A DNA stretch of 64,000 nucleotides from a virus. The translations under genes were made by a program, and so were the position numbers. Shown in pieces: positions 132 through 17,925 of this stretch (position 1 is its first letter; each line of letters opens with the position of its first letter). Location: IMG/VR virus record IMGVR_UViG_3300033121_000578, positions 7,845-71,844 of that record; one strand, 5' to 3'. Below the pieces are notes generated by a model, which had not been told where the DNA came from, did no database searches, and was given only the letters and a program-made list of their open reading frames with translations.

Positions 132-142
132 GCTACTCAAAA

Positions 143-904: not shown

Positions 905-1179
905 GCTGATTCTTTTTGTGGTTTAAGGGACTGATTTTTCTGATAGATTTCATCCCAGTTATAGGATGTTTCATCTATGAACTTGGCTTCAGTCTTCTGG
1001 CCAAATTCTTTCTCCCATTCTGCGAGGCGTTCAGGACGATTATCGTGCAAATCACCTTTTGCATAGCCTGAGCTACTACAGAAATGACTTGCAAGACAAT
1101 CACCTGTTTCTGGGTCAAAGATGTAAAAGGGAGAATCTGTCTTTACATTTGAACCCGGATAAATTACAAGGGTTTTCAT
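901..1179 (-). CDS. hypothetical protein (92 aa)
   Basis: ORF with 4-nt overlap coupling to neighbours. Confidence 0.5.
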   Translation of the reverse strand: MKTLVIYPGSNVKTDSPFYIFDPETGDCLASHFCSSSGYAKGDLHDNRPERLAEWEKEFGQKTEAKFIDETSYNWDEIYQKNQSLKPQKESA

Positions 1180-1379
1180 TCTTCATCCTTTTTTGAGGAC
1201 GATTCTCTCACACATGTTACTGTGATTGTGATATCCTCGTTACTGATTATGATATCCTCGTCCTTAAGATTTGCAGTATCTATTCCCATCTGGCGTGCTG
1301 CAAATGTCTTAGCCCAGCTAAGGATATCTGTCTTATCGTATACCACCCGTTGGGTAGTGGTTTCAGTATATGATGCCAT
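1176..1379 (-). CDS. hypothetical protein (67 aa)
   Basis: small ORF overlapping neighbour by 4 nt. Confidence 0.4.
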   Translation of the reverse strand: MASYTETTTQRVVYDKTDILSWAKTFAARQMGIDTANLKDEDIIISNEDITITVTCVRESSSKKDEE

Positions 1380-1569
1380 TTATTTCTTTTTTATTTTGAG
1401 ACGGGTTACCTCAACCTTCGAGGGACTCCACTTATCACATGACGTAATAAAGATATCCTTCATTAGTTCATCTGTAAGTTTACCTTGAAGTTTACCCTTC
1501 TTTTTCCTTACTTTTTCCCAAGCGTTCATAAAATTGTTTTAAAGGAGGGGTGGTTTCCCACCCTTCCTG

Positions 1570-2439
1570 TTAATAATCGTCTTCGTTGCTCCAGTTATCC
1601 TGCTTGGAGTACTCTTTCACTGTTTTGATGGCCTTATCAACAGGCACGCAATCAATACAGTGGTCAATTACTGCGTGCTTGAGTTCATCAATAGTGAGAG
1701 CGTTCTCTTCAGCCAGATAAGCAAACTTGCTCAGTTCCCTGTCCGTGATATGGGGCATCTTTGAGTGGATATAGTCCTTATATACCTCAATAGGCAGGGC
1801 CTTGATTTCAATGGTTAGTTTGATACGACTTCTTCTTTCCCGTATACGCTTGGGAATTTTGTTGAAGAAGTTGGTGCATCCAATGAAAATGCTCCTTTCA
1901 ATGGATTCAGTGCCGTCCAGAAAGGCCAGAAACTTTTCCTCATTACCACGAAAAGAGTTCTCAGCCTCATCCAGAAAGATAACAATCGGGTTATCCTGAA
2001 CGTCCCGGATTTTGTGACATACCAGCCTTATCCAGTCAGCATTATCGCCTGTGAAATCAATACACACAGCATTGAAATCACGTACAAGTTCACTCATAAT
2101 GAGCTGAACTGTGCAGGTTTTACCCGTGCCCGGAGGGCCATACATCAGAATACCCATCTTATGTGCCACACCCATCTGCTTATACATAGCAGTAACATTG
2201 GGTGAGAAAAAGTGGGTACACTTATCAATGACAGTACTAATAGCACCCGTCTTGAATTTGATGAGGTCTTCCTTTAATGTGACAGGAGATAACGATATTG
2301 CAGTAGGCTGGAAGGGGACACTTATATCATACGAGCTGTAAATTCCCGGAGGAAGTTTCTCATACTGTGTCTCGATGAGGTCCAGTCTCTGCATGATGAT
2401 ATCATGTCTGTCCCTGTGTTTAATGAAATTCGTTGCCAT
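1570..2439 (-). CDS. AAA+ family ATPase
   Basis: Walker A GPPGTGKT and Walker B IVIFLDEAE in a 289-aa ORF. Confidence 0.8.
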   Translation of the reverse strand: MATNFIKHRDRHDIIMQRLDLIETQYEKLPPGIYSSYDISVPFQPTAISLSPVTLKEDLIKFKTGAISTVIDKCTHFFSPNVTAMYKQMGVAHKMGILMYGPPGTGKTCTVQLIMSELVRDFNAVCIDFTGDNADWIRLVCHKIRDVQDNPIVIFLDEAENSFRGNEEKFLAFLDGTESIERSIFIGCTNFFNKIPKRIRERRSRIKLTIEIKALPIEVYKDYIHSKMPHITDRELSKFAYLAEENALTIDELKHAVIDHCIDCVPVDKAIKTVKEYSKQDNWSNEDDY

Positions 2440-2452
2440 GTGATTGGGGGTT

Positions 2453-2698
2453 TTAGTGATTATCTAGTAATTGTTCTAGTTCTTCGTATTCTTTCTTAGG
2501 ATATTGCAGATGTAACATATCCAAATGCCAAGCGTCTGTTCCTATATCACCCACGTACTCTGTTACTCTCTCAGACCATTGGTTATGATATATACCCTTG
2601 TATGGGCACAACTTCCATCTGCAGGTATGTGCATCCTTTCTGTCATATATAATTATACAGATAAGGAACACAAGCAGTATTTCGAGTATCTTTTTCAT
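2453..2698 (-). CDS. small protein with N-terminal hydrophobic segment (81 aa)
   Basis: ORF; N-terminal segment LEILLVFLICIII looks like a signal peptide or TM helix. Confidence 0.4.
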   Translation of the reverse strand: MKKILEILLVFLICIIIYDRKDAHTCRWKLCPYKGIYHNQWSERVTEYVGDIGTDAWHLDMLHLQYPKKEYEELEQLLDNH

Positions 2699-2741
2699 TG
2701 CAGTTAATTAAAAGGATACCCCATTTCTGAGGTATCCTTGG

Positions 2742-2978
2742 TTAAACTTTTGGCAGGTGAAGGAGAATCCTTTCTCCCTCCATAAGAACCAGCTCATCAC
2801 TATATGCCCTTACGGACATACCTAATTGATTCTCAAACACATAATCTGCCTCTGCCTCTATCTCCTTAGGGAGGAGTGGGACTGAATACTTTACTGTTCT
2901 CTGTCTTCCATCTGCATGGATATACAGTACAGTAAAGGGATTATGTGAGATTACCCTGTAGGCTACTGCTCTGGGCAT
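2742..2978 (-). CDS. hypothetical protein (78 aa)
   Basis: ORF in minus-strand block. Confidence 0.4.
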   Translation of the reverse strand: MPRAVAYRVISHNPFTVLYIHADGRQRTVKYSVPLLPKEIEAEADYVFENQLGMSVRAYSDELVLMEGERILLHLPKV

Positions 2979-3310
2979 TAGCTAAGCATTGGGGTGAGCA
3001 AATTCTTGGCCTTATCTACTTTCTCCACTTCCTGCAGCATCTCAGTCATTTTCTTGATAGAACCTCCGTTTTCGAGGTTAATCATGAGCATGAAGGAGAA
3101 CATCTCCACGGCCCTTTTGTTTTCATCAGTAGGTGCTACCTTATACTCCTTCAGGGCATCTTCGAGTTTCTCGATAATGTCTTCAGTAGGCATAATTGTA
3201 GCAGCCATAAACAGCAACTGTTTCATGTGACTTATTTTGGGGTTAATGAATACATAGAAAAGGACTAGTAGAGGGCTTAACGGACCCTCCATGAGGACAA
3301 ATATGTCCAC
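2978..3310 (-). CDS. hypothetical protein (110 aa; an internal Met near 3226 may be the real start)
   Basis: ORF in minus-strand block. Confidence 0.45.
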   Translation of the reverse strand: MDIFVLMEGPLSPLLVLFYVFINPKISHMKQLLFMAATIMPTEDIIEKLEDALKEYKVAPTDENKRAVEMFSFMLMINLENGGSIKKMTEMLQEVEKVDKAKNLLTPMLS

Positions 3311-3405
3311 CTCACCAAACTCACCTGTTTAGGGCATATTGTTCGGGAAACTAGTCCTACTCACTAACCCTCCATCATCACTGCTTTATAGTAATGAACG
3401 AGGGA

Positions 3406-3663
3406 TTAGCCACCCAGCTTTGCCATCAGCTCGGCAAGAGGGTTTTTGGCCTGTGAAATCAGGTCACCCAGCATAAAGCAGGATAACATCAGGCGTGTAG
3501 GGTCATCTTTGTACTTGTTGTACAGATGTTCCAGAGCCTTGGATTTGTTACCTGTTTCTGCAGCTTCAAAGACTTCAGGCTTGATTTCTTTGACGGCATC
3601 ATCGGGGAGAGACAGGCTCGCTGTGAGCGTCTTTTCTTCGTGTTTAAACTGTACTTGTTCCAT
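3406..3663 (-). CDS. hypothetical protein (85 aa)
   Basis: ORF. Confidence 0.5.
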   Translation of the reverse strand: MEQVQFKHEEKTLTASLSLPDDAVKEIKPEVFEAAETGNKSKALEHLYNKYKDDPTRLMLSCFMLGDLISQAKNPLAELMAKLGG

Positions 3664-4034
3664 ATATATGGGGTTTTAGTGAACACAAATAAAGAGAGCC
3701 AACCCACAAAGGCCAGCTCCCACTATCATCAGAGGTCGTTCAACACACAATCATATAACACAACCTCCGGGAATTATCCCATAGTCTCGGAGGACCATAC
3801 CACATTTCATAGGTTAGCTAAACCTATTTGTTGTGGGTTTAAGGCAGTCCTCATGCAGCTCGCACTAATCCCTTGATAGTCAAGGAGATAAGCCCAATAT
3901 AGTAGCACAATTACACCCTGCTTCTCAGATGTATTCCCTATACTTCGCACCCTTCGATACGTAATCTCAGGTGTATAAGGAGTGCTACTATTCTCTATGT
4001 CACTGATTCTCACAGTGATAGCAAAGGACTATTG

Positions 4035-4325
4035 CTAGTCCTGTTCAACCATTACTTCTTCAAGGATTTCCTCCAGTTTAACTTCACCCGGAGGCAATAT
4101 CTCTCTCAACTGGGATAATGGTACTCCCAGTTCAGTGCCTGTCAATAAGTTATGGCCTATTACACCTTCTTCAAATACAGCGTAACGACTCATACTTGCA
4201 AAGCAGAATCCGATATCCCGTATCATGTACGGGGTTTTCTCATCCATGACAGGTAACCACTTAACCTCAGGTCTTACATGGCCTTCTTTCATGGGAAGAA
4301 CGACAACAATGCTTCCTATCTTCAT
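4035..4325 (-). CDS. hypothetical protein (96 aa)
   Basis: ORF; followed upstream by a ~950-bp noncoding region. Confidence 0.5.
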   Translation of the reverse strand: MKIGSIVVVLPMKEGHVRPEVKWLPVMDEKTPYMIRDIGFCFASMSRYAVFEEGVIGHNLLTGTELGVPLSQLREILPPGEVKLEEILEEVMVEQD

Positions 4326-4657
4326 ATAGTGGAGTTTTAGTTTACATTATTGAAAATCTTATGTGAATAGTGAAACAGTCACGATAGGTAAGCTGTATAG
4401 ATGGGGCAGGATTTCATTTAAGGAGAGCTTATCCTCCAGCCCTGCTTTACTTGTTACCCTTCAGTTGGTCCTTCCAACCTATTGGTGCCCATTCAGCATC
4501 TCCATCTACCGTTGCTACAGGTGATTTGCTGTCCTGTAGGGGTGAATCTAACTACTCACATAAGATTTGTATCACTAGTCAGCCTCTAATTCATAGACAT
4601 GTACCAATGGCAGAATTTGCCGGGGTATGGCCTACTATAACTTGGCTGATATACCAC

Positions 4658-4730
4658 ATTCTCTTATATATGGTATATGATAGTTCTCACAAAATTTTCT
4701 CAGCTCCTAACCCTACTAGTATAAGAGAAT
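4658..4730. repeat. inverted repeat ATTCTCTTATA / TATAAGAGAAT within the large noncoding region
   Basis: arms at 4658-4670 and 4720-4730, about 11 bp perfect; flanking GATATACCA and ATATACCAG modules. Confidence 0.5.
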
Positions 4731-5066
4731 ATACCAGTATTACGGTTGCTCTGGCTAAGTAATAGGTTTTATAACAGTGCTTACTGAAGGCACCTATACC
4801 TACCTCTCTGATATGCTCCTCACGAGAGATTCTCCAAAAAACGTATTCCTACGTATTAAGAACTACTAACCTTAGTAGATACAATACTACCTATCCCCAT
4901 GTTTCAGTTGATTACAGATATAGAGGTAATTAAACATGGTTTGCCCTTATACAGGAAAAGGGCTGCTTTTAGTTAAAATTGTAATATACTGCACCAAATC
5001 TGACTTGGCAGATGGTATACTTCCACGAATCTTTCTCACATTTGGGGAAGGGTTTTAGAACACTAT

Positions 5067-5095
5067 TTTCCCACTTTTCCCCACTTTTTACCACA
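5067..5095. repeat. three tandem ~10-bp repeats TTTTCCCCAC-like
   Basis: ttttcccac, ttttccccac and tttttaccac follow one another directly; more CCCAC copies at 5111 and 5152. Confidence 0.5.
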
Positions 5096-5215
5096 TTTTG
5101 GCACAAAAAATCCCACCTTCGTACTCCACGGAGGCACTTTCCGCATCATATCTCCCACTTATTGCTTAAATCATAAATGAAAACGGTATACCTATCTGAG
5201 AGCTTTCAGTGGGGA

Positions 5216-5263
5216 CTTTTTTAAAAAACATAACCTACTACCAGTATTTCACCGATAGTAGGT
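5216..5263 (-). terminator. hairpin terminator downstream of ORF 5281-5886
   Basis: AACCTACTA(N15)TAGTAGGTT perfect 9-bp stem flanked by an A/T run; a U-tract on the minus strand. Confidence 0.55.
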
Positions 5264-5280
5264 TATATGATTTGCTGGGC

Positions 5281-5886
5281 TTAGTTCTTCTTACCAGCAC
5301 CTGCTGTAGCAGTAGGCTCAGGTGTTGCAGTAGGCTCAGGAGCCACGGCTGCTTTCTGCTGCTTTTCGTACTCTTCCATCCACTTCACCATATCTACAGG
5401 GCCTTCACCCTCATAGAGTTGTTTGATGGATGTTTGTACTTTAGCCCTGTTATCAGCAGCCAGCCTTCTGCCCTTACGACGGAAGGATTCACTGGTCAGC
5501 CAGATACGGGCAGGAGCAGTCAGGACAGCACGACCTCTTACCATCTGGTACTTGGGCTTGGATACATCCATTTTCAGGGTACCCTGATACCGCAGGCCAT
5601 CTGCAGTTTTGGTGAGACCCAGAGCCAGTTGGTTTACATCATCACCAGCCACATACACCTTGATATCCCGGATAGTGGGAAGTTTACCCTTGTCATTGGG
5701 GATACTGCCTTCAGCTACAAGCGGCTGCTTGAGCGTCAGTATCTTCAGGGTAACGCCTTCTTCACCATCAGGACCTGCAGCAGAGGAATCATCGTCAACC
5801 TTGACGATTTCCATTTCTACCTTAGGTTCGAGGCTGTTCAACAGTTCCAGACCGTGTAACAGTTTCTTTGTTTGTTCTTCGTTCAT
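5281..5886 (-). CDS. hypothetical protein with PEPTAT low-complexity C-terminus (201 aa)
   Basis: long ORF; C-terminal PEPTATPEPTATAGAGKKN. Confidence 0.6.
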   Translation of the reverse strand: MNEEQTKKLLHGLELLNSLEPKVEMEIVKVDDDSSAAGPDGEEGVTLKILTLKQPLVAEGSIPNDKGKLPTIRDIKVYVAGDDVNQLALGLTKTADGLRYQGTLKMDVSKPKYQMVRGRAVLTAPARIWLTSESFRRKGRRLAADNRAKVQTSIKQLYEGEGPVDMVKWMEEYEKQQKAAVAPEPTATPEPTATAGAGKKN

Positions 5887-6073
5887 AATTTTCAGATTTA
5901 GAAATTATTGTTAACAATAAATGAAAGACAACCACCGCCTACTCGCCCTGCTTGGTGGATTCATCATTTAAAAAAATAGGGCACCACAGATAAAAATATG
6001 ATGCATTTAATGATAAAAACAATCTGCAGCTCATGTTGCAGAACTGCAGATTGTTGTGTATCAGGCAGTTGTA

Positions 6074-6739
6074 TTATGCAATGTCCTTCAGGTCAAAGCC
6101 GTACATCCGTGCAGCATCAACCCTTTCCCTTGCAGAGATGCGTCCAAGCACCTGCATAGAGTGAAGACTGATGAGTGTGCACATAGCACGCTTGGGCAGA
6201 ACTTCCTCCTGTTTGCCATTCCATGTGGTGAGGCGAGGAGGAAAGATATCAACCATGCCCTTCTCCAGCTTAATCTTGAGGACAGGATACTCCTTATTCG
6301 TAGCAGGGTCCAGCCACTTCTTGGGCTTATTGCCATCCTTCACCTCATCAGCCTTAGCAGCCTTGACCTGCATGAAGAAATCAGTCATCCAGATTTCGTT
6401 CACATCCATGCTAAGCGTACCCATCTTATTGCCAAACTTACGCTTGAGCGTGCTGTTGACACCAACCATAGGCTTCAACAGCTTGAAGATGAAGAACTTA
6501 GTAACGTCCGGCATGGTATTGAGCTTCTCCTCAAGCTCCGTGTACTTCTTAGTATCACGCTTGAGCATGGCCTCATTAAGCTCAGCTTCAAGGGCCTTAC
6601 GCTCCTTATCATAACCCAGTTGGGTACGATAGAGAACGCATTCGAATTCTAAACCGTCTGTGCCATTGCTGGCATCGGAGTTGGTGATAACCTTCTCCAT
6701 GGCATCCTTAATGATGCCAATTTGCATGATGTCTTTCAT
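6074..6739 (-). CDS. hypothetical protein (221 aa)
   Basis: long ORF; the plus-strand ORFs 6056-6652 and 6171-6614 are antisense shadows. Confidence 0.6.
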   Translation of the reverse strand: MKDIMQIGIIKDAMEKVITNSDASNGTDGLEFECVLYRTQLGYDKERKALEAELNEAMLKRDTKKYTELEEKLNTMPDVTKFFIFKLLKPMVGVNSTLKRKFGNKMGTLSMDVNEIWMTDFFMQVKAAKADEVKDGNKPKKWLDPATNKEYPVLKIKLEKGMVDIFPPRLTTWNGKQEEVLPKRAMCTLISLHSMQVLGRISARERVDAARMYGFDLKDIA

Positions 6740-6830
6740 TTGTTAACAATTTGTGCTTACTCTCTTTTTTATAACAGGTTTGTTCAGCGTCTTCCCTGTT
6801 TCCACATTTTTAGCCTAATAGTGGTAACTG

Positions 6831-7097
6831 TCAGCTTTTGGCAGGTTGCTGACTACCTTCTTTAATTGTGAATTGCTCAGTTGCTTTATATGTGAATACT
6901 ATGATTTTCAAAGCTCCCCATGTCATAATCCCATCAAAATCAGGGGCATTTACCAGAAGTTTGCAGATTTCAGGACTAATCTTTTCCCTGAAACATTTCA
7001 CAATATGATATGACCCAATAATAAACTCAGAAACCTCATGTGGATAACCACTCACAGTGAGTGCATCCGACAACTGACTCAATTGATAAATTGTCAT
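6831..7097 (-). CDS. hypothetical protein (88 aa)
   Basis: ORF. Confidence 0.45.
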   Translation of the reverse strand: MTIYQLSQLSDALTVSGYPHEVSEFIIGSYHIVKCFREKISPEICKLLVNAPDFDGIMTWGALKIIVFTYKATEQFTIKEGSQQPAKS

Positions 7098-7157
7098 AAT
7101 TTACCTCCTTGATTTGTAGCCAATTAGGTTGTTAAGACCAGTTGGCTGGGTTAATAA

Positions 7158-7544
7158 TTAAGATTTCTTCCAGTTTTCGTCAACAGTGGGTTCAGGTGTA
7201 GGTTTGTTGGGCCTAACATAAGCAGGTTTAACATCACCTACATATTCTTTGATGATGTTAATAGACTCATGGAATTCCAACTCGGCCCGAAGAATGTCAA
7301 CGAATTCTTCAATTGTTGCTCCCTCCTTGTACTTGAGGCTATTACAGTTGCCAACGTGTGACATGATAATGTCCCTGACACTTGCTTTGGGCAACAATTT
7401 GGTCAGGTAGCTCAGCACATTCTTGCTGACAATTACCAAATCAATACCCTCATTAAGATTAGCAACCAATACAGGTGCCTCTTTACCATTCGGTAAAGCC
7501 ACCATTTCGTGCTGATTCACAGCTTCTTGTGCATTCTTGTTCAT
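7158..7544 (-). CDS. hypothetical protein (128 aa)
   Basis: ORF. Confidence 0.55.
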   Translation of the reverse strand: MNKNAQEAVNQHEMVALPNGKEAPVLVANLNEGIDLVIVSKNVLSYLTKLLPKASVRDIIMSHVGNCNSLKYKEGATIEEFVDILRAELEFHESINIIKEYVGDVKPAYVRPNKPTPEPTVDENWKKS

Positions 7545-7576
7545 ATCTGTAATCGTGGTGTTTTGTCACCACTTGA

Positions 7577-7620
7577 GCCAGAGTGGGACTCGAACCCACT
7601 CCATCCTCCAAGTCTGGCTT
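7577..7620 (-). pseudogene. tRNA-derived minihelix / 3' fragment (acceptor plus T-arm only)
   Basis: minus strand reads AGCCAGA-(13 nt)-GTGGG TTCGAGT CCCAC-TCTGGCT-C; perfect 7-bp acceptor and 5-bp T-stem but no D or anticodon arm. Confidence 0.4.
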
Positions 7621-7622
7621 AA

Positions 7623-7922
7623 CTAACGCAATGAAAGCCTGAGTTTATACTCGGATAACTTATCAATAATCTCTTTTATGCTCTTTTCACCACAGTTCCT
7701 GATTTTGGATAAATCCTCAATAGTATAGGTTGAGGTAAAATGCTCCAACGTATCATCAAGTACTCTTCCATCTAATTGGTAAAGAATATTGATGATTCTT
7801 GCGTTATATCCAAATACATCACGCATAGTTGGCTCAATATCAGGTTTTTGTAACTCTTCAGCTATCTCCTTAAGACTGTCTGCAATACCATGCAAAATTC
7901 TTGAGATTTTACTTTTGTTCAT
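7623..7922 (-). CDS. RNA polymerase alpha-subunit C-terminal-domain-like HhH DNA-binding protein
   Basis: C-terminal LSKIRNCGEKSIKEIIDKLSEYKLRLS closely matches the alpha-CTD motif [22 protein letters not shown] (recalled from memory). Confidence 0.55.
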   Translation of the reverse strand: MNKSKISRILHGIADSLKEIAEELQKPDIEPTMRDVFGYNARIINILYQLDGRVLDDTLEHFTSTYTIEDLSKIRNCGEKSIKEIIDKLSEYKLRLSLR

Positions 7923-7935
7923 AGTTTAGCCCTCC

Positions 7936-8175
7936 TTAGGCTACATTTTGTTTTATACGTGGATAAAGTGCAGTATCCAACTCCTTAACCATGCCCTCAT
8001 CCTCGAACTCTTCGAGCAGTTCAAAGGAATGTGTCTGCTTTAGTTCTGCTAAAGAGTTGGCATAGACTATATTGCCAGTTACGGCATTATGGCCAATGGC
8101 AAACCTCTTGTCTGATTCGTGTGCCACAACCACTCCCTCAGACCAGATGGTTGTATAGGCAATAAACTTGTTCAT
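7936..8175 (-). CDS. hypothetical protein (79 aa)
   Basis: ORF; its start lies inside the 19-bp repeat TCATGTTGTCTAGTTTTAA. Confidence 0.5.
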   Translation of the reverse strand: MNKFIAYTTIWSEGVVVAHESDKRFAIGHNAVTGNIVYANSLAELKQTHSFELLEEFEDEGMVKELDTALYPRIKQNVA

Positions 8176-9581: not shown

Positions 9582-9654
9582 ATTTTATTGTTTTAGTTGT
9601 AAAATAATTTTGATTTGATTTTTCTGGAGTTTTTTAGAGTTTGCTGCCATTTAG

Positions 9655-9794
9655 GTAGGGGGTACAGGCAGCTTCATCTTTCACCCCGGTACCTTTTATA
9701 CATCTGTTCCCCAACTCTCTGCACACAAAAAATTTTGAAACCAAAGGGTAGGGGGTATCTATAGGAGGGGTACCTTTAAGGGGAGGGGGTACTC
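9655..9794. repeat. GGGGTAC iteron-like repeats (4-5 copies) in the divergent intergenic region
   Basis: GGTAGGGGGTAC 9655-9666, GGGTAGGGGGTATC 9746-9759, GGAGGGGTACC 9764-9774, GGGAGGGGGTACTC 9781-9794, CCCCGGTACC 9684-9693. Confidence 0.6.
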
Positions 9795-9874
9795 TGTAGG
9801 AAAGTACCTATTCTTCTCTGCCCTCCCCGTATTTTGGCTAATACGTTAATGTCTTGTTAACATTCCCCTATATT

Positions 9875-9907
9875 TTTGGATTTGCCCTTATAATTAGTGT
9901 ATATTTG
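9875..9907 (+). promoter_or_regulatory. Bacteroidetes-type promoter (-33 TTTG, -7 TATATTTG) for the plus-strand block
   Basis: TATATTTG at 9900-9907, TTTG at 9875-9884; the ATG at 9912 is only a few nt downstream. Confidence 0.5.
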
Positions 9908-10764: not shown

Positions 10765-11484
10765 ATGAAAATAACAGTAGAAAGACTAATTATTCTTATA
10801 TTAGTAGTATCTCTATTCCTTTTATATAAATGCTCCTCCTCAAGATTGCGTGAAAAGGATGATATAATTACTCAGGCAGAGCTGGATAAACAGACATTAC
10901 AGACCCTTCTGAATAAGAAGGGAGATACCATCTATTCACAACAGTCTATTATAACATCCTCACAATCAGCTATTAAGAATCTGACAGACTCTATCTTCGA
11001 CCTAAAGAAGAAGGATAAGAAGAACAGAGAAGTAATAGCCTACTATAGAGGACGTACAACTACACGTATTGATACCTTGGAGATTAGTTGGGTAGATACG
11101 GCCCGTATGAAGAGATTTGAGGACTCTGTAGAACAGGTATGCAAGGATGTCATAGCATTCTATAGAGACTCTGCTATAGAGACACCACATACAGATTCCT
11201 TTACAACGAAGGATATTGATGTAAACTTTACATTGAAGAAGACCAACCGCACACCATCCCTTGTAATAAACAGGTTGGCAATAGTAGATACCCTTGATTT
11301 ACAGTTTGTTGAGCATAGACGCTTCTTACGAAAGCCAACAATTGAGGTACAATTTAAGCACTCTAATCCCTATATAAAGGTAGATGGGTCAAACTCAGTA
11401 TTTTATAAACCACAGAAGAAACCTAAATGGTTTCAAAAAGCCCTACTAATAGGTGTAGGGGTATTTTTAGGAACAAAACTATGA
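10765..11484 (+). CDS. bitopic envelope protein with an N-terminal signal/lipoprotein-like segment and a C-terminal TM helix
   Basis: N-terminal LIILILVVSLFLLYKCSSS and C-terminal ALLIGVGVFLG hydrophobic segments around a hydrophilic middle. Confidence 0.55.
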   Translation: MKITVERLIILILVVSLFLLYKCSSSRLREKDDIITQAELDKQTLQTLLNKKGDTIYSQQSIITSSQSAIKNLTDSIFDLKKKDKKNREVIAYYRGRTTTRIDTLEISWVDTARMKRFEDSVEQVCKDVIAFYRDSAIETPHTDSFTTKDIDVNFTLKKTNRTPSLVINRLAIVDTLDLQFVEHRRFLRKPTIEVQFKHSNPYIKVDGSNSVFYKPQKKPKWFQKALLIGVGVFLGTKL

Positions 11485-11711
11485 CAACAACTAACATACT
11501 CCCAGACAAGAAAGAAATAATCCAGAGGTTATTTACAGCAGGACACATCACATTTGATGAGATGTGGGTCCTCCTACAGGATAATGAGGGAACAAAGTTT
11601 ATCCCTTTACCTTATCAGGTACCATATTACCCATGGCCCTATTACTATCAGCAACCTCCTGTTATTACTGAACCATATTATACAACATCAACTCAGATAA
11701 AGCATGAATGA
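11481..11711 (+). CDS. Pro/Tyr-rich small protein (76 aa)
   Basis: ORF from ATG 11481; YQVPYYPWPYYYQQPPVITEPYY. Confidence 0.4.
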   Translation: MTTTNILPDKKEIIQRLFTAGHITFDEMWVLLQDNEGTKFIPLPYQVPYYPWPYYYQQPPVITEPYYTTSTQIKHE

Positions 11712-12306
11712 TACGTATCAGGACTTAGAGGGATACAATATAAATATGCCAGAGTGGTTATCTCCCATCCATGAGCATAATTTTATACATCCCACGGCCA
11801 TAATTGGCCCAAATGTTAAAATGGGAAAGGGTAACTACGTTGGACCATTCTGTGTAATTGGTTATCCTGCAGAGCATAAGAAGTACTGGATAACCAACGA
11901 GAAAGCCTCAAATATGCTGATGCCTACATTTGATGGAGCAGGGGTAGGAGAGGTAGAGATTGGAGATAATAATATTTTTACAGGAATGGTTACAATAGAT
12001 GCATCTACGGAGCAGAAGACAGTTATAATGAATAGATGCTGGTTCCTAAAGCACTCACATGTTGGACATGATGCAGTTATTGGGAATGGAGTTACGGTAT
12101 CCTGTGGAGCAAAGGTAGGAGGTCACTGCATAATTAATGATAACTGTAACCTAGGATTAAATGCCACTATACATCAGTGGGTAGAGATACCTTCACAATG
12201 TATGATAGGTATGGGAGCAGTAGTAACAAAGAAAACAGAATTATCACCAAATAGAAAATATGCTGGGGTTCCAGCTAAAGATATAGGAGAGAATATAAAG
12301 AAATGA
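11704..12306 (+). CDS. LpxA-like hexapeptide-repeat acyltransferase (truncated, lacks the C-terminal helical domain)
   Basis: FIHPTAIIGPNVKMGKGNYVGPFCVIG, VEIGDNNIFTGMVTI and HVGHDAVIGNGVTVSCGAKVGGHCIINDNC align with E. coli LpxA motifs, including the catalytic-His HxxHD region (recalled from memory). Confidence 0.75.
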   Translation: MNDTYQDLEGYNINMPEWLSPIHEHNFIHPTAIIGPNVKMGKGNYVGPFCVIGYPAEHKKYWITNEKASNMLMPTFDGAGVGEVEIGDNNIFTGMVTIDASTEQKTVIMNRCWFLKHSHVGHDAVIGNGVTVSCGAKVGGHCIINDNCNLGLNATIHQWVEIPSQCMIGMGAVVTKKTELSPNRKYAGVPAKDIGENIKK

Positions 12307-12932
12307 GAGTAACAATATCATTACCTTGTTTTGGGAGACCTCAACGTACAAGAAGAGCCATTCAATGTATCCTTAATCAGGATTTAAAGGGATGGGAAGC
12401 ATTTATAATGGGAGATAACTGTCCCCACTTTCAGAAGATGATAGATAGTGGAGAGATGGAGTGGCTACAATGGGGTGCCAATCTACATGGAAACAAACTA
12501 CATTACTTTAATGCTAAGGAGAATGGCGGAGGTCACGGTTATAAATTAACCAACCATGCCATCCAGAATGCCACAGGAAAGTATTTGGTATTCTTTGCTA
12601 ATGATGATGTAATTCTCCCAAATCACCTATCTAACTATATGGAGATAGAAAAATATCCAGATATAGATATGATGTACTTTGATAGCTATCTTGAGCCATC
12701 AAAGAGTCCACGTATCTCACGTTTGGGATTTTGTCAGATAGGACATAGTGAAATAATTGTTAAAACAGATATAGCAAAGAAATGTCGTCCACATACAGAA
12801 AAGTATGGACATGACTGGGATTTTATATCAGATATAATGGGAATGGGGAAGTGTATTAAATCTACGTCTACACTACAGACATATAGAGTTATGCATATTC
12901 CCTCTATAGGATGTGTTGATACAATAGATTGA
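12303..12932 (+). CDS. family 2 glycosyltransferase (GT-A fold)
   Basis: ISLPCFGRPQ...ILNQ...EAFIMGDNC N-terminal pattern and a DxD-like FFANDDVILPN. Confidence 0.7.
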   Translation: MRVTISLPCFGRPQRTRRAIQCILNQDLKGWEAFIMGDNCPHFQKMIDSGEMEWLQWGANLHGNKLHYFNAKENGGGHGYKLTNHAIQNATGKYLVFFANDDVILPNHLSNYMEIEKYPDIDMMYFDSYLEPSKSPRISRLGFCQIGHSEIIVKTDIAKKCRPHTEKYGHDWDFISDIMGMGKCIKSTSTLQTYRVMHIPSIGCVDTID

Positions 12933-12979: not shown

Positions 12980-13426
12980 ATGAAAAATATGATGAACGAA
13001 TTATTTAATTTTCCAATTGTCATGATAGATGGTGATAACGAGGAAAGAAAGTCAGCAGAAGATAGACTACTTGGAAGGGTATCAAATGATGAGCCTACAG
13101 AATATGATATGATATTTGGAGAGGCTGAGTACCCATATTTTGATTTTGTTGGAATAGAAGACAGATGGCTACCATCAAAGGAATCAGTAGAAAAGGCAAT
13201 AGATGGAAAGTTTGATGCATGTATTGTAAGATTTGCAAGTGTTGGACAACTTCTTGTACCTTGGTCAAGAAAGAAATTTAAGGCAGAAATTGCAAAATTT
13301 GCAGAACAATATGAAGCAGAAAAAGCTGCAAAAGAATCTGAAAAAAGAGAAATCAGAGTAATAACTTTAACTCCTCAACAACTTGAGGGAATTATGCAAA
13401 CACAAAAACCAGATGAAAATGAGTAA
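12980..13426 (+). CDS. hypothetical protein (148 aa)
   Basis: ORF. Confidence 0.55.
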   Translation: MKNMMNELFNFPIVMIDGDNEERKSAEDRLLGRVSNDEPTEYDMIFGEAEYPYFDFVGIEDRWLPSKESVEKAIDGKFDACIVRFASVGQLLVPWSRKKFKAEIAKFAEQYEAEKAAKESEKREIRVITLTPQQLEGIMQTQKPDENE

Positions 13427-14134: not shown

Positions 14135-14692
14135 TTGTATATTAATCATATGACAGGAAGTAGAGTCGTAAAAGTATTCGAAGCAGACAAAGAAATAAAG
14201 TTACAAAATGTAGAGAAAAAAACTTACAACTACTTAAAAACTAATAGTTTAAACGATATAGTAGTTATAATAGATGATGACTTACAAAAGATTGCAAATA
14301 TTGCTAAGTGTGTAACGTCTACTGTATATTCCTCTTTGTTCCAACTTTCTAAAAAAGGACTGATTAAGATTATAGAAAGAAGAATAGAGAGAAAGAAAAC
14401 CAAACATGGAGATTTGAACCCCGGAGAGAGTGGGTATAATTACTTCACTGTAGCAAAGATGAAGTATGGTATAGGTAAAAATGAAATAGAAGAAATTTGG
14501 AAAAAGCAAGGATATTCGTGTGCTATTTGTGGAAAGAAAAAGGAGTCATCGGGGAAAAGATTTCATATAGACCACTGTCATATTAGCGGAAAAATAAGAG
14601 GTCTATTGTGCAGCAAATGTAATATGGGGATAGGAATATTTGACGAAAGTATAGATAGACTTAATTCTGCAATTTTATATTTGAAAAGTTAA
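14135..14692 (+). CDS. Endonuclease VII (T4 gp49)-family HNH-type nuclease with N-terminal HTH-like region
   Basis: HIDHCHISGKIRGLLCSKCNMGIG matches the Endo VII motif HLDHDH...G.VRGLLC..CN..G. Confidence 0.75.
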   Translation: MYINHMTGSRVVKVFEADKEIKLQNVEKKTYNYLKTNSLNDIVVIIDDDLQKIANIAKCVTSTVYSSLFQLSKKGLIKIIERRIERKKTKHGDLNPGESGYNYFTVAKMKYGIGKNEIEEIWKKQGYSCAICGKKKESSGKRFHIDHCHISGKIRGLLCSKCNMGIGIFDESIDRLNSAILYLKS

Positions 14693-15854: not shown

Positions 15855-16157
15855 ATGTTAGTAGCAGTCGATACAGTAAAAGATTTAGGGAAGGTAAAGA
15901 AGGGAAGTCCTTACTCCTTCCAGTTTGCATTAAGAAACAACGGACAGAACGAAGTTATAATTGACAGAATATCAGTAGGTTGTGGGTCCTGTACAAAGGC
16001 ATCCACCTCTAAGGTAAAGCTTGGTCCGGGAGATACATCAAATATAGATGTAATCTTTACTCCGGGTTCTACTGGTACCCAACAAAAATTCGTGAATGTG
16101 CAGTGGAATAGGGATAATCTCTTGAAGCTGACATTTACAGCAGATTCATATGAGTAA
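15855..16157 (+). CDS. DUF1573-like small protein (a Bacteroidetes-type domain)
   Basis: about 100 aa with NNGQNEVIIDRISVGCGSC, resembling the DUF1573 CGC signature (from memory). Confidence 0.45.
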   Translation: MLVAVDTVKDLGKVKKGSPYSFQFALRNNGQNEVIIDRISVGCGSCTKASTSKVKLGPGDTSNIDVIFTPGSTGTQQKFVNVQWNRDNLLKLTFTADSYE

Positions 16158-17925
16158 AGTTAAATTCATAGAAGATACACACCAGTATTTGACAGAAGAT
16201 GGAAGAGAGTTAATCTCAGTGTCAGCATTTACAGAAAGATTTAAACCAAAAGTTGATTGGAAAGCAGTTGCCAAAAAGGTAGCAGCAAAAAAGACAAAAG
16301 CCGGAGAACCAACTACCACCGAGGAAATCCTTAAGAAGTGGGAGGAGAAGAGGGATTTATCTGCCAAAATAGGAACAATTTTTCACTCTATTAAGGAAGA
16401 AGAGTTGTTGGGGCAGGAAAATCCCATCTTTTATAATACACCATGTTCTACTAAGGAGTGCCTCTATACAGGAACAGACAAGTGGTCAATTCCCATTAAT
16501 AAGCTGGAGAATAATACCGTATATCCAGAATTAATGATATATGACATAGAGCATATGATTTGTGGACAATCAGATAAAGTAATTGTTGCCAACAATAAAA
16601 TAAATATCTGGGACTATAAAGGTTTGGCTCTTGATACAATAATACCTACAGAGACAGGATTTAAACTAATGGCTGATATTCAGGTTGGTGATAGGATTTT
16701 TGACGGAGAAGGTATATTAACATCAGTCAAGCATATTTCTGAAATACATTATAATCCATGTTACAGGGTATTTTTTGATACAGGTGATAGTATAGTATGT
16801 GACCATGAACATAAATGGGAGATTTCACACAGACTCTCAAAAGGTAAATATAAAGATTTAGAGAAAAGAACTGATGAATTATTCTCATATTTTGGTAAAG
16901 GTAAACCTATAAGAATAAAATGCAACCCTTTGGTTTTACCTAAAATTGAACTTCCTATAGACCCTTATATTTTAGGAGTGTGGTTAGGAGATGGTAACTC
17001 ACATGCTGGTAGAATTACAAATATGAATCCGAATTTATGGATAGAAATAGAGAAAAGAGGATATACTCTTGGGAAAGATATTTCAGGAGGTAGTTCTGGC
17101 AAAGCTCAGGATAAAACAATATTTGGATTAGAAACTCAATTAACAAAACTTGGATTACTTAAAAATAAACATATTCCTGATATATATCTTAGAGGGTCTT
17201 ATGAACAAAGATTAGATTTACTTCGTGGTCTTATGGATACAGATGGTAGTTGGAATAAAAAGAGAAAAAGATGTGTGATGGTTACAACAAAAGAATGGCA
17301 AGCTAATGGAATATCTGAAATAGTTTCGTCTCTTGGTTGGAAACCAACTATTATTAAAGCCAAAACATCAGGTTTTGGTAAAGATAATATATCTTGTTTT
17401 CATGTTAATTTTGATGCTAAGGAAAATCCATTTCTAACAAAGAATGAAGATTATAAACCTAATAATAAGGAGAAATCTAATTATAGATATATAAAAGAAA
17501 TAAGGAAGATAGATAGTATACCGACAAAATGTATATCTGTAGATAGTCCTGCTCATACATATCTTGTCACCAGAAATTACATAAAAACTCATAATACTGA
17601 CGCAGAGATAAAGTTTAAGGCTTTTTCTAGTCAGTGGGTAAAACCACAGAAGCTACTTGGACCATTGGCACACCTAGATGACTGTAATGCTAATATCTAT
17701 TCTATTAAGATGTCATTGTACATGTATCTTTTATGGAGAGCAAACAGGGGAACACTTAGGACGGGTGATATTATGATTGAGCATGTACATCTTGAGAGAG
17801 ATGAAGATGGACTTCCGATTCTTGAAGATGGCAAACCAATTGTAAAAAAGATTGAGCAAATCCAATTACCCTATCGAAAGAAGGAAGTTATGGATATGCT
17901 AGCAACCCTAAAAGTAAAAGCATGA
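16150..17925 (+). CDS. PD-(D/E)XK (RecB/Cas4/YqaJ-like) nuclease interrupted by an intein-like Hint plus LAGLIDADG homing-endonuclease insertion
   Basis: extein GQSDKV...IWDYKG|...|TDAEIKF gives D...DYK nuclease motifs. The insertion (about residues 158-482, nt ~16621-17595) starts with LALDTIIPTETG...VGDRIF (block A-like), has two LAGLIDADG motifs (ILGVWLGDGNSHA, LLRGLMDTDGSW) and ends with YLVTRNYIKTHN|T (block G HN plus Thr +1). Confidence 0.8.
   Translation: MSKVKFIEDTHQYLTEDGRELISVSAFTERFKPKVDWKAVAKKVAAKKTKAGEPTTTEEILKKWEEKRDLSAKIGTIFHSIKEEELLGQENPIFYNTPCSTKECLYTGTDKWSIPINKLENNTVYPELMIYDIEHMICGQSDKVIVANNKINIWDYKGLALDTIIPTETGFKLMADIQVGDRIFDGEGILTSVKHISEIHYNPCYRVFFDTGDSIVCDHEHKWEISHRLSKGKYKDLEKRTDELFSYFGKGKPIRIKCNPLVLPKIELPIDPYILGVWLGDGNSHAGRITNMNPNLWIEIEKRGYTLGKDISGGSSGKAQDKTIFGLETQLTKLGLLKNKHIPDIYLRGSYEQRLDLLRGLMDTDGSWNKKRKRCVMVTTKEWQANGISEIVSSLGWKPTIIKAKTSGFGKDNISCFHVNFDAKENPFLTKNEDYKPNNKEKSNYRYIKEIRKIDSIPTKCISVDSPAHTYLVTRNYIKTHNTDAEIKFKAFSSQWVKPQKLLGPLAHLDDCNANIYSIKMSLYMYLLWRANRGTLRTGDIMIEHVHLERDEDGLPILEDGKPIVKKIEQIQLPYRKKEVMDMLATLKVKA

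What the first reader, a model, noticed from the sequence alone, without database searches (positions are those of the whole stretch)
10765..12932. Envelope-modification-like cassette: bitopic membrane/lipoprotein-like protein, truncated LpxA-like acyltransferase and GT2 glycosyltransferase
ORF 11704-12306 aligns convincingly with LpxA (HPTAI-IGPFC-IG, VEIGD, HxxHD and repeated hexapeptides) but lacks the C-terminal ACP-binding helical domain. It is translationally coupled to a GT-A family-2 glycosyltransferase. Upstream is a 239-aa protein with a signal/lipoprotein-like N-terminus and a C-terminal TM helix. A lipid-A-pathway-like acyltransferase in a phage is unusual. The trio could modify a host surface glycan or lipid (superinfection exclusion, receptor masking), a nucleotide sugar, or possibly phage DNA/virion components.
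Basis: partly seen in the sequence, partly recalled or inferred. Interest (0 to 1): 0.65.

Follow-up and report, generated by a model that had tools for sequence, protein, structure and literature searches.

The report
Phage sugar acetyltransferase–glycosyltransferase gene pair
A crAss-like phage carries a tightly linked pair of genes, a short LpxA-like sugar acetyltransferase and a family-2 glycosyltransferase, that recurs (sometimes fused into one protein) in many unrelated uncultured phages and most likely builds an acetylated sugar decoration; it does not make lipid A, and its target is still unknown.

Summary
The ORFs exist as described. 11704-12306 is a left-handed beta-helix (LbH) protein that keeps LpxA's catalytic residues and lacks its C-terminal domain. 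It overlaps a GT2 gene (12303-12932) by ATGA. "Truncated LpxA" is a misnomer, though. The protein belongs to a large, naturally short family (at least 1184 clusters). Its closest characterised relative is Pcryo_0615 (PDB 8E62), an N-acetyltransferase that completes a UDP-2,3-diacetamido-uronic acid for an O-antigen. It fails the LpxA and NeuD/PglB curated cut-offs. LbH→GT-A linkage is near-universal: 81 of 82 distinct viral loci, with three unrelated GT-A subtypes. Each subtype also occurs fused to the LbH in a single chain, like Mimivirus L142 (acetyltransferase+GT2). A second glycosyltransferase (GT-B or GT6) or a methyltransferase often joins. The cassette lies in or beside packaging/virion modules in four phage architectures. 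The 239-aa membrane protein is lineage-specific (9 clusters) and is not part of the module; a 76-aa ORF was missed. Best reading: an acetylate-then-transfer glycan module. The acceptor is unresolved: virion proteins are slightly favoured, host envelope glycan is next, DNA is unlikely. This is a new phage variant of a known enzymatic logic, of moderate interest.

The parts
11704..12306 (+). Short LpxA-like left-handed beta-helix acetyltransferase (200 aa), Pcryo_0615/8E62 type; core component 1
   Evidence: Hexapep 8e-20. LpxA 106 bits and NeuD 96 bits, both below cut-offs. Best PDB hit 8e62_A at E 5.5e-32 over the full length, identified as the Pcryo_0615 N-acetyltransferase. Catalytic H122/D123, H141, H157/Q158 are invariant in the family. 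No TM segment.
12303..12932 (+). GT-A fold family-2 glycosyltransferase (209 aa), soluble; core component 2
   Evidence: Pfam GT2 32.4 bits > 23.3. Invariant NDD 100-102. AF2 pLDDT 93.6. Foldseek hits SpsA, AvpGT, WrtF, TarP. 4-nt overlap with the LbH gene. At least 360 homolog clusters, all about 210 aa. Fused to the LbH in P0349.
11481..11711 (+).
   Evidence: Sequence junctions ATGA (11481-11484) and ATGAATGA (11704-11711). The only homologs found are in L003 (same phage) and weakly in L002.
10765..11484 (+). 239-aa lineage-specific membrane/lipoprotein-like protein (N-terminal hydrophobic segment + Cys23, C-terminal hydrophobic tail); neighbour, not part of the conserved module
   Evidence: KD19 max 2.39 at the N-terminus. 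The L150 homolog (48% id) keeps the hydrophobic N-terminus + Cys and the C-terminal tail. Only 9 homolog clusters. No Pfam, PHROG or PADLOC assignment.
12980..13426 (+). 148-aa protein of unknown function, conserved directly downstream of the GT2 within this crAss-like lineage only
   Evidence: Present after the GT2 in L001, L002, L003, L150, L195 and the JGI contig. Absent after the cassette in L151/L152 and in the ~35-kb phages. No family hit.

Best explanation
The conserved unit is a two-enzyme 'acetylate-then-transfer' glycan module. Step 1: the LbH protein, presumably a homotrimer like its relatives, uses acetyl-CoA (not acyl-ACP) to acetylate a UDP-HexNAc-type sugar at C3. The reaction is N-acetylation of a 3-amino sugar as in Pcryo_0615, or possibly 3-O-acetylation with LpxA-like chemistry. 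His122/Asp123 would act as the catalytic dyad. Step 2: the adjoining soluble, DxD-type inverting GT2 transfers that tailored sugar onto an acceptor. In other phages a second glycosyltransferase (GT-B or GT6) or a methyltransferase extends the same pathway. The phage encodes no enzymes for earlier steps, so the precursor nucleotide sugar must come from the host. The acceptor is not established. My preferred guess is phage virion proteins, i.e. self-encoded virion glycosylation as in Mimivirus L142 and glycosylated mycobacteriophages. What is shown: family placement, retained catalytic residues, obligate linkage and fusion with GT-A enzymes, cytoplasmic location, and position in or next to morphogenesis modules. 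What is inferred: the acyl donor, the exact sugar, the order of the steps, and the acceptor. Sub-confidences: not LpxA/lipid A 0.95; sugar acetyltransferase functionally coupled to the GT 0.8; acts on the nucleotide sugar before transfer 0.6; virion proteins as acceptor 0.35-0.4. The overall confidence given (0.6) refers to the acetylate-then-transfer module, not to the acceptor.
For: (1) Nearest characterised relative. 8E62/Pcryo_0615 is an N-acetyltransferase needed for 2,3-diacetamido-2,3-dideoxy-D-glucuronic acid. The match is full-length at E 5.5e-32, about 40-45% identity, and much better than any LpxA (E about 1e-13). A Psychrobacter locus encoding a protein 87% identical to 8E62 carries a UDP-GlcNAc 6-dehydrogenase, an oxidoreductase, a DegT aminotransferase, a flippase and a GT4. 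Other short cellular homologs sit in Wzx/Wzy polysaccharide loci. (2) The LpxA sugar-site and catalytic residues are retained. The LpxA hydrocarbon-ruler position G173 is a Met in the phage family and in Pcryo_0615. The helical domain is absent. (3) Linkage. Of 82 distinct viral loci with enough downstream sequence, 79 have a GT2 directly downstream on the same strand. Two have a third GT-A-like type, and one has the GT2 2.6 kb away. The three GT-A partner types are mutually unrecognisable by sequence, whereas the LbH stays 48-58% identical across phages with unrelated terminases. (4) Rosetta-stone fusions exist for all three partner types: P0349 (LbH+window-type GT2), P0306 (LbH+type-b GT2) and P0328 (type-3 GT-A+LbH). 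(5) Precedent. Mimivirus L142 is an N-terminal trimeric, acetyl-CoA-dependent, His-dependent UDP-viosamine N-acetyltransferase joined to a C-terminal GT2. It is split into two genes in some strains and serves virion fibril glycans (PMC10117803, PMC9614988). (6) Accessory tailoring enzymes join the pair: GT-B upstream in 76/110 loci, GT6 in L151/L152, and a methyltransferase-like gene between LbH and GT2 in L195/L196. (7) Position. In ~35-kb phages the cassette abuts or overlaps the gene preceding TerL and TerL itself, with no terminator-like site on that strand before TerL. In L151/L152 it lies inside the crAss tail module next to Ring_2/Ring_1. In L198/L199 it lies between the portal and Mu-F head genes. 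In the window it lies at the head of the block transcribed towards TerL/portal. (8) Both proteins lack TM segments.
Against: No biochemical data exist for any phage member. The paper describing Pcryo_0615 could not be read, so its substrate-contact residues could not be compared. No aminotransferase, dehydrogenase or other nucleotide-sugar enzyme was found in the 64-kb window or in 20 kb of a ~35-kb phage, so availability of a 3-amino UDP-sugar depends on an unknown host. The order of the steps could be reversed, with the LbH acetylating the transferred sugar. Placement inside late or structural operons is also typical of host-directed 'moron' genes, and cellular homologs act in surface-polysaccharide synthesis, so the virion-acceptor part is weakly supported. 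The LbH AF2 model is only moderate (pLDDT 72).
Confidence: 0.6

Rival explanations
1. Host envelope glycan remodelling. The pair, with the accessory GTs, acts in the cytoplasm on host nucleotide sugars or undecaprenyl-linked O-antigen/capsule/LOS intermediates. The infected (or lysogenised) cell then displays an altered surface, which masks receptors, excludes superinfecting phages, or stops progeny from adsorbing to debris.
For: Cellular homologs of the LbH lie in O-antigen/CPS loci with Wzx, Wzy, aminotransferases and GTs. The GT2's structural neighbours include the prophage-encoded teichoic-acid GlcNAc transferase TarP, and SpsA/WcaA-type polysaccharide GTs. GT6 enzymes (L151/L152) typically extend glycan acceptors (own knowledge). 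In this lineage a membrane/lipoprotein-like protein is chained to the cassette. From own knowledge, phage-encoded LbH O-acetyltransferases of capsule (NeuO of prophage CUS-3) are a precedent.
Against: There is no flippase, polymerase, priming transferase or membrane-bound component in the conserved core, and both enzymes are soluble. No integrase or repressor was seen in the sequence examined, and crAss-like phages are not classical temperate phages. The flanking phage GTs are not detectably related to the GTs of the cellular loci. The membrane protein is lineage-specific.
Confidence: 0.3
2. Phage DNA hypermodification. The GT-A glycosylates a hydroxylated or hydroxymethylated base in phage DNA, and the LbH supplies or acetylates the sugar, protecting the genome from restriction or CRISPR.
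For: An AlkB-like 2OG-Fe(II) oxygenase gene lies 1-3 genes upstream of the LbH in several crAss-like relatives (L001, L002, L150, a JGI contig). N6/N4 DNA methyltransferases occur near the cassette in ~35-kb phages. The enzymes are cytoplasmic. The cassette sits at the replication/packaging boundary in the ~35-kb phages.
Against: The window itself has no 2OG oxygenase homolog. It has no thymidylate-synthase-like hydroxymethylase or TET/JBP family hit among 54 ORFs, and 20 kb of a ~35-kb phage has none either. The oxygenase is the AlkB (repair) type and is absent from three of the four cassette architectures. The LbH's closest relatives act on UDP-sugars for polysaccharides. GT6 and GT-B partners suggest oligosaccharide building.
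Confidence: 0.08
3. A genuine, truncated LpxA-type acyl-ACP-dependent acyltransferase that feeds or perturbs host lipid A synthesis.
For: The top NCBIfam hits are the LpxA equivalogs. The HPTAI/IGPFC motifs and the H125/D126/H144/H160/Q161 equivalents are retained.
Against: Scores are less than half the curated LpxA cut-offs. The C-terminal helical domain, with its UDP-binding residues N198/E200/R204/R205, is entirely absent, and this holds across the whole family, not as a truncation. A Met sits at the hydrocarbon-ruler position. There are no lpxD/fabZ/lpxB neighbours. The invariable partner is a glycosyltransferase. The nearest characterised enzyme is an N-acetyltransferase. Canonical LpxAs are recovered only as distant hits, 24-34% identical to the window protein.
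Confidence: 0.03

Closest known systems
Pcryo_0615 of Psychrobacter cryohalolentis K5 (PDB 8E62), N-acetyltransferase for UDP-2,3-diacetamido-2,3-dideoxy-D-glucuronic acid
   Same: Same short, single-domain LpxA-like LbH architecture (189 vs 200 aa). Colinear over the full length at about 40-45% identity. Shared His-Asp dyad, GGH, HQ motif and Met at the LpxA ruler position. Identical behaviour against NCBIfam: LpxA then NeuD as top hits, both below cut-off.
   Different: Pcryo_0615-type genes sit in a bacterial O-antigen locus with the dehydrogenases and aminotransferase that make its substrate. The phage gene has none of these and is instead always paired or fused with a GT-A. The window protein also has an extra 19-residue loop (about 63-81) of low model confidence. 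Substrate identity is untested.
Mimivirus L142 (N-terminal UDP-viosamine N-acetyltransferase + C-terminal GT2; split into two genes in Mimivirus M4 and Hirudovirus)
   Same: A virus-encoded, acetyl-CoA-dependent trimeric acetyltransferase with a catalytic His, joined or adjacent to a GT2 thought to transfer the acetylated sugar. It occurs both fused and split, as here (PMC10117803, PMC9614988).
   Different: N-L142 is modelled on PglB (the NeuD/PglB class, acting at C4 of a 6-deoxy sugar), which is a different LbH subfamily from the LpxA-like one here. Mimivirus encodes the whole precursor pathway (R141, L136) and the phages do not. No sequence homology between the two systems was tested or shown.
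LpxA (acyl-ACP:UDP-GlcNAc 3-O-acyltransferase)
   Same: LbH fold, N-terminal HPTA/IGPFC motifs, catalytic His125/Asp126, and His144, His160/Gln161 equivalents. Both probably act at position 3 of a UDP-HexNAc.
   Different: No C-terminal helical domain. About two beta-helix turns are missing near the N-terminus. Sub-threshold scores. A bulky Met at the ruler position. No lipid A gene context.
Phage-encoded soluble GT2 enzymes that glycosylate host polymers or virions (S. aureus prophage TarP; mycobacteriophage Che8/Corndog virion glycosyltransferases)
   Same: Cytoplasmic GT-A/GT2 enzymes carried by phages. TarP is among the top structural matches. Mycobacteriophage virion glycosylation by phage GTs is documented (Freeman et al. 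2023, cited in PMC11256854). That Corndog also encodes an O-methyltransferase is my own recollection.
   Different: 16-17% identity to TarP. The window GT2 is much shorter (209 aa) and lacks TarP's trimerisation and polymer-binding C-terminal part. None of those systems has an obligately linked LbH acetyltransferase.

Membership tests
LpxA (NCBIfam NF003657 / TIGR01852) | Whole-protein score at or above the curated equivalog cut-off | tested here: not met
   106.0 vs 226 bits and 103.7 vs 231 bits.
LpxA | C-terminal alpha-helical domain carrying UDP-binding residues (E. coli N198, E200, R204, R205) | tested here: not met
   The alignment to verified 1LXA ends at about residue 178 of LpxA and no counterpart residues exist. 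The whole family is 160-200 aa.
LpxA | Catalytic His125/Asp126 and sugar/acyl-site His144, His160, Gln161 | tested here: met
   They align with H122/D123, H141, H157, Q158, all invariant in 23 family members.
LpxA | Open hydrocarbon-ruler pocket for a C10-C16 3-hydroxyacyl chain (E. coli Gly173) | tested here: inconclusive
   The position is Met170 here and Met in Pcryo_0615. That suggests a short acyl group, but the alignment alone cannot define the pocket.
LpxA | Lipid A gene neighbourhood (lpxD-fabZ-lpxA-lpxB) | tested here: not met
   The neighbours are phage genes and glycosyltransferases in all 82 viral loci examined.
Pcryo_0615-type short LpxA-like sugar N-acetyltransferases (PDB 8E62) | Full-length colinear similarity with 8E62 as best solved relative; single LbH domain of about 160-200 aa | tested here: met
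   E 5.5e-32, query 26-199 vs chain 8-166. Foldseek top four hits are 8e62 chains at 39-40% id.
Pcryo_0615-type short LpxA-like sugar N-acetyltransferases (PDB 8E62) | Genomic association with enzymes that make UDP-GlcNAc3NA (6-dehydrogenase, 3-dehydrogenase, aminotransferase) | tested here: not met
   Present in Psychrobacter L086. Absent from the window and from the phage loci.
Pcryo_0615-type short LpxA-like sugar N-acetyltransferases (PDB 8E62) | Acetyl-CoA-dependent N-acetylation of UDP-2-acetamido-3-amino-2,3-dideoxy-glucuronic acid | not testable with these tools
   This needs an enzyme assay. The primary paper (doi 10.1002/pro.4502) was not available.
NeuD/PglB/VioB sugar acetyltransferases (TIGR03570) | Score above cut-off and an N-terminal nucleotide-binding alpha/beta domain preceding the LbH | tested here: not met
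   96.2 vs 160.8 bits. Only profile positions 99-202 (the LbH part) match.
GT2 / GT-A inverting glycosyltransferases (Pfam PF00535) | Pfam gathering score, DxD metal/nucleotide motif, GT-A Rossmann-like fold | tested here: met
   32.4 vs 23.3 bits. Invariant N100-D101-D102. AF2 pLDDT 93.6, with SpsA TMq 0.77 and TarP 0.70.
Phage seroconversion systems (GtrABC; integral-membrane Oac) | Membrane components: GtrA flippase, C-terminally membrane-anchored GtrB, GtrC, or a multi-pass acyltransferase | tested here: not met
   The LbH and GT2 have no hydrophobic segment (KD19 max 0.99 and 0.55). No such genes are in the conserved core.
Viral bifunctional acetyltransferase-GT modules (Mimivirus L142-like logic) | Sugar acetyltransferase and GT2 adjacent or fused in one polypeptide | tested here: met
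   4-nt overlap in the window. 81/82 loci have an adjacent GT-A. Fusions P0349, P0306 and P0328.
Viral bifunctional acetyltransferase-GT modules (Mimivirus L142-like logic) | Product is a glycan on the virion | not testable with these tools
   Only positional evidence is available: the cassette lies within or next to packaging, head or tail modules.

The most novel reading that the evidence does not exclude
crAss-like phages and several unrelated groups of uncultured phages glycosylate their own virions with an acetamido or O-acetyl sugar. They would do so with a minimal, horizontally mobile two-enzyme module (a short LpxA-like acetyltransferase plus an interchangeable GT-A) that parasitises a host UDP-sugar pool. 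This would be the first self-encoded virion glycosylation system in Crassvirales. It might affect stability, mucus binding or immune recognition of phage groups related to very abundant gut phages.
Probability: 0.35. Interest if true: 0.7.

Novelty: new variant of a known kind. Interest (0 to 1): 0.48.

Why it matters
Both enzymes belong to known superfamilies, and the 'acetylate a nucleotide sugar, then transfer it' logic is known from bacteria and from Mimivirus L142. The new elements are these. A short LpxA-like acetyltransferase family is predominantly viral. It is obligately coupled, and repeatedly fused, to three unrelated GT-A types. It has spread across phages with unrelated terminases, including crAss-like phages. 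It sits in or next to virion morphogenesis modules. I found no description of it in the literature I could search, and no member is present in a cultured phage. If the acceptor is the virion, it would extend phage self-glycosylation beyond mycobacteriophages to Bacteroidota-type phages. If the acceptor is the host envelope, it would be a receptor-masking system in phages with no sign of lysogeny in the sequence examined. In practice it also corrects a recurring mis-annotation: JGI labels these proteins 'UDP-N-acetylglucosamine acyltransferase', which implies lipid A metabolism in phages.

Tried and rejected
(1) Near-identical DNA in cultured phages: none. A protein search of INPHARED gave only distant hits, 45% identity or less and partial, or canonical LpxA in contaminating or bacterial records. 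(2) PHROGs gave only 'unknown function' families for the LbH and one weak GT hit. PADLOC gave nothing. (3) The Pcryo_0615 primary paper was sought by PMC id and DOI, and by a full-text search for the gene name; it is not held, so ligand-contact residues could not be compared. (4) Literature searches for an LpxA-like, hexapeptide or acetyltransferase+GT cassette in crAss-like phages found nothing relevant. (5) Cluster-1 and window-type GT2s as direct homologs: hhalign probability only 2.8%. They are treated as separate GT-A subtypes that both pass Pfam GT2. (6) Phage GT-B or GT2 genes as recent captures from the cellular loci that hold LbH homologs: no significant similarity. (7) The C-terminal extension of 260-290-aa LbH variants as the small ORFs between LbH and GT2 in relatives: no match and no Pfam family. 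(8) A substrate-supply or DNA-hydroxymethylation gene in the window or in a ~35-kb phage: none found. (9) A 2OG oxygenase homolog in the window: none. (10) The 239-aa protein as a conserved third component: rejected. (11) BFVD fold search for a characterised viral GT2 twin: only generic GT2s at 20% identity or less.
Full report
OBSERVATION. The three ORFs are at the stated coordinates. ORF 11704-12306 (200 aa) has four Hexapep stretches (8e-20). Its best NCBIfam hits are the two LpxA equivalogs (106 and 104 bits) and the NeuD/PglB/VioB subfamily (96 bits). All three are far below the curated cut-offs of 226, 231 and 161 bits. ORF 12303-12932 (209 aa) passes the Pfam GT2 gathering score and overlaps the LbH gene by 4 nt. 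This ORF overlaps the 239-aa ORF by ATGA and the LbH gene by ATGAATGA, so four ORFs are chained by overlapping stop/start codons. The window belongs to a divergent crAss-like phage. TerL is about 27% identical to gut crAss-like phages, there are PHROG terminase and portal hits, and Pfam finds crAss_MUZ, CrAss_Ring_1 and CrAss_Ring_2. Near-identical copies of the two proteins occur on dozens of metagenomic contigs of up to about 165 kb.

WHAT THE LbH PROTEIN IS. Against solved structures the outstanding hit is 8e62_A (189 aa; E 5.5e-32; full length). Canonical LpxAs follow at E about 1e-13 and match only parts of the protein. Foldseek with an AF2 model (pLDDT 72) identifies 8E62 as 'Pcryo_0615 from Psychrobacter cryohalolentis, an N-acetyltransferase required to produce diacetamido-2,3-dideoxy-D-glucuronic acid'. 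A Psychrobacter genome locus encodes a protein 87% identical to 8E62. That locus carries a TviB/WbpA-type UDP-GlcNAc 6-dehydrogenase, an oxidoreductase, the LbH, a DegT-type aminotransferase, a flippase and a GT4. This is the layout of the WbpA/B/E/D pathway summarised in PMC10622841.

I verified my recalled E. coli LpxA sequence as identical to 1LXA and aligned it to the family profile. LpxA H122, H125, D126, H144, H160 and Q161 correspond to H119, H122, D123, H141, H157 and Q158. All of these are invariant in 23 family members. The hydrocarbon-ruler Gly173 is Met170 here, and Met in Pcryo_0615 too. The C-terminal helical domain with N198/E200/R204/R205 has no counterpart. About two beta-helix turns present near the LpxA N-terminus are also missing.

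The protein is therefore related to LpxA in its catalytic core. It is a member of a naturally short family, not a truncation. The large database returns 1184 clusters, mostly 160-200 aa. A full HMMER scan of 1.84 billion representatives gives 299 clusters at E <= 1e-30, almost all 160-250 aa. In 185,579 species genomes the best cellular relatives reach only 35-43% identity. They are short forms from Bdellovibrio, Halobacteriovoraceae, Psychrobacter and Bacteroidota MAGs, and several lie next to flippases, Wzy, aminotransferases and GTs. Everything more distant is a canonical LpxA with its C-terminal domain. Viral contigs, by contrast, hold members at 40-100% identity. The family is thus mainly viral.

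THE PAIR IS THE UNIT. I called ORFs in the fetched viral loci, clustered them, and then scored all viral loci with profile HMMs. There are 88 distinct LbH DNA sequences, and 82 of them have at least 1.5 kb of downstream sequence. Of those 82:
- 79 have a GT2 directly downstream on the same strand: 72 of 'type b' (cluster 1, Pfam GT2 25.3 bits > 23.3) and 7 of the window's 'type a'.
- Two (L081, L191) have a third GT-A-like gene with an LLGSDDYI motif.
- One (L040) has the GT2 2.6 kb away, after an insertion.

The three GT-A types are not recognisably related to one another by sequence. The LbH, however, stays 48-58% identical, even between the crAss-like window and ~35-kb phages with a T4-type terminase, where it is the only detectably shared protein. 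Within the window's lineage the cassette is syntenic and diverges somewhat faster than core genes: against L150, LbH is 57% and GT2 58%, versus TerL 71% and portal 76%.

The exhaustive profile search turned up three proteins of about 412-423 aa, which I dissected:
- P0349 = LbH + window-type GT2 (42% identical to the window GT2, E 5e-57).
- P0306 = LbH + type-b GT2 (171 bits against the cluster-1 profile).
- P0328 = type-3 GT-A + LbH.

So every partner type also exists as a single-chain fusion, in both domain orders. This is classical Rosetta-stone evidence that the two activities serve one pathway.

ACCESSORY GENES AND POSITION.
- ~35-kb phages: a GT-B-like gene lies directly upstream (76 of 110 loci). 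The run LbH-GT2-c9-TerL is contiguous or overlapping, with no terminator-like site on that strand before TerL.
- L151/L152 (another crAss-like lineage): the cassette is GT6-LbH-GT2, inside the tail module next to Ring_2, Ring_1 and the large (1540-aa) downstream tail gene.
- L198/L199 (Terminase_3 / Phage_portal / Mu_F phage): the LbH-GT2 fusion and a GT-B lie between the portal and Mu-F genes.
- L195/L196 (very close to the window; TerL 92%): a methyltransferase-like gene is inserted between LbH and GT2.
- The window lineage: the cassette is near the start of the long plus-strand block that runs into TerL, portal and the tail genes.

Several relatives have an AlkB-like 2OG-Fe(II) oxygenase 1-3 genes upstream. 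The window has none. No nucleotide-sugar enzyme, base hydroxymethylase or TET-like protein was detected among 54 window ORFs or in 20 kb of a ~35-kb phage. Neither the LbH nor the GT2 has a hydrophobic segment. The GT2 model is confident (pLDDT 93.6). Its structural neighbours are ordinary inverting GT2s (SpsA, AvpGT, WrtF, TarP, TarS), and no characterised viral twin exists.

THE 239-AA PROTEIN. It has a hydrophobic N-terminus followed by Cys23, and a short C-terminal hydrophobic tail. The L150 homolog keeps both features once its ORF is extended upstream. The family has only 9 clusters, all in this narrow lineage. It is absent from the other cassette architectures. It is a neighbour, not a component of the conserved module.

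MECHANISM. The best-supported model is an acetylate-then-transfer module. The LbH, presumably trimeric, uses acetyl-CoA to acetylate position 3 of a UDP-HexNAc-type sugar. This would be N-acetylation of a host-supplied 3-amino sugar as in Pcryo_0615, or conceivably 3-O-acetylation. The GT2 then transfers the tailored sugar, and GT-B, GT6 or methyltransferase partners extend or decorate the glycan in some lineages. The logic matches Mimivirus L142, whose N-terminal trimeric, His-dependent, acetyl-CoA-using N-acetyltransferase is fused to a GT2 and is split into two genes in some strains (PMC10117803, PMC9614988).

The acceptor is not determined. I slightly favour virion proteins (0.35-0.4). The reasons are that the cassette sits in or beside morphogenesis modules in four independent architectures, that the enzymes are soluble, and that there are precedents for self-encoded virion glycosylation (mycobacteriophages: Freeman et al. 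2023 as cited in PMC11256854; giant viruses). Host envelope glycan modification is a strong rival (about 0.3). Cellular homologs work in O-antigen/CPS loci, TarP-like enzymes are a precedent, and moron genes also sit in late operons. DNA hypermodification is unlikely (about 0.08), and a true lipid A role is essentially excluded (about 0.03).

COMPARISON AND NOVELTY. The LbH is a member of the Pcryo_0615-type short LpxA-like acetyltransferases by sequence, length and catalytic residues. It lacks that enzyme's pathway context, and its substrate is untested. It is not an LpxA and not a NeuD/PglB-class enzyme. The GT2 is a bona fide GT-A/GT2. As a system, the obligate and repeatedly fused LbH+GT-A module spread across unrelated phages is, as far as I could search, undescribed. 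I rate it a new variant of a known kind, with moderate interest (0.48).

LIMITS. There is no experimental model, because no cultured phage carries the cassette. The Pcryo_0615 paper could not be read. Hosts are inferred only loosely, from the crAss-like affiliation and a DUF1573 domain protein conserved in the lineage.

Noticed in passing
window 16150-17925 (+): The 591-aa ORF looks like an intein-containing gene. Residues 1-157 and 477-591 align (88-89% id) with the 266-aa protein of close relative L195. The roughly 320-aa insert carries a LAGLIDADG hit and ends in '...THN|T', an intein-like C-terminal junction. The host protein hits PHROG exonuclease and terminase-like ATPase families.
   Followed up: partly
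window 10765-11484 (+); L150 8099-8812: The 239-aa protein and its L150 homolog combine an N-terminal hydrophobic segment ending in a Cys with a C-terminal hydrophobic tail. From my own knowledge this is the architecture of unimolecular spanins (phage T1 gp11 type). It is not next to an obvious endolysin, so this is only a lead.
   Followed up: partly
L195 10576-11172; L196 2225-2821: In a very close relative of the window phage, a 198-aa Methyltransf_23-like gene (25.4 bits, just under the cut-off of 27) is inserted between the LbH and the GT2. This suggests O- or N-methylation as an extra tailoring step.
   Followed up: partly
L151 8786-10639; L152 5557-7410: In another crAss-like lineage the cassette is GT6 (PF03414, 44.5 bits)-LbH-GT2. 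It has moved into the tail module, directly upstream of the CrAss_Ring_2/Ring_1 genes and a 1540-aa downstream tail gene.
   Followed up: partly
L198 5480-7662; L199 3230-5412: A Terminase_3 / Phage_portal / Mu_F-type phage carries the LbH-GT2 fusion protein (P0306, 423 aa) plus a GT-B between its portal and Mu-F head-morphogenesis genes.
   Followed up: partly
P0019, P0029, P0042, P0103, P0112 (LbH homologs of 260-290 aa): A subset of family members carries a conserved C-terminal extension of about 80 aa (...KTIFVLKG.K.SPVMIY...KVYTSGLGL.C...IFKLLGH). It has no Pfam match and no counterpart in the window or in the fetched loci.
   Followed up: partly
L001 159-710; L002 5191-5631; L150 7371-7859; JGI 3300078620 contig: An AlkB-like 2OG-Fe(II) oxygenase (PF13532) lies 1-3 genes upstream of the LbH in several relatives of the window phage but has no homolog in the window. 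In L002 a HAD-like 126-aa gene sits between it and the LbH.
   Followed up: partly
window 1-8000: G+C is 42-43% here against 31-41% (mostly 34-38%) in the rest of the window. Genes here run on the minus strand (AAA ATPase, DUF7873), and the strand switch is near 9600-9900.
   Followed up: no
window 11441-11460: A terminator-like hairpin (CCCTACTAATAGGTGTAGGG followed by a T-run, scored on both strands) lies inside the last codons of the 239-aa ORF, just before the 76-aa ORF. It encodes the C-terminal hydrophobic tail and may be coincidental.
   Followed up: no
window 15855-16157 (+) and 14135-14692 (+): A 100-aa DUF1573 / Ig-like protein is conserved at the same position in all relatives of this lineage, which may be a hint to the host phylum. 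An Endonuclease VII gene, plus two HNH and NUMOD hits elsewhere, indicate many homing-endonuclease-type genes in this genome.
   Followed up: no
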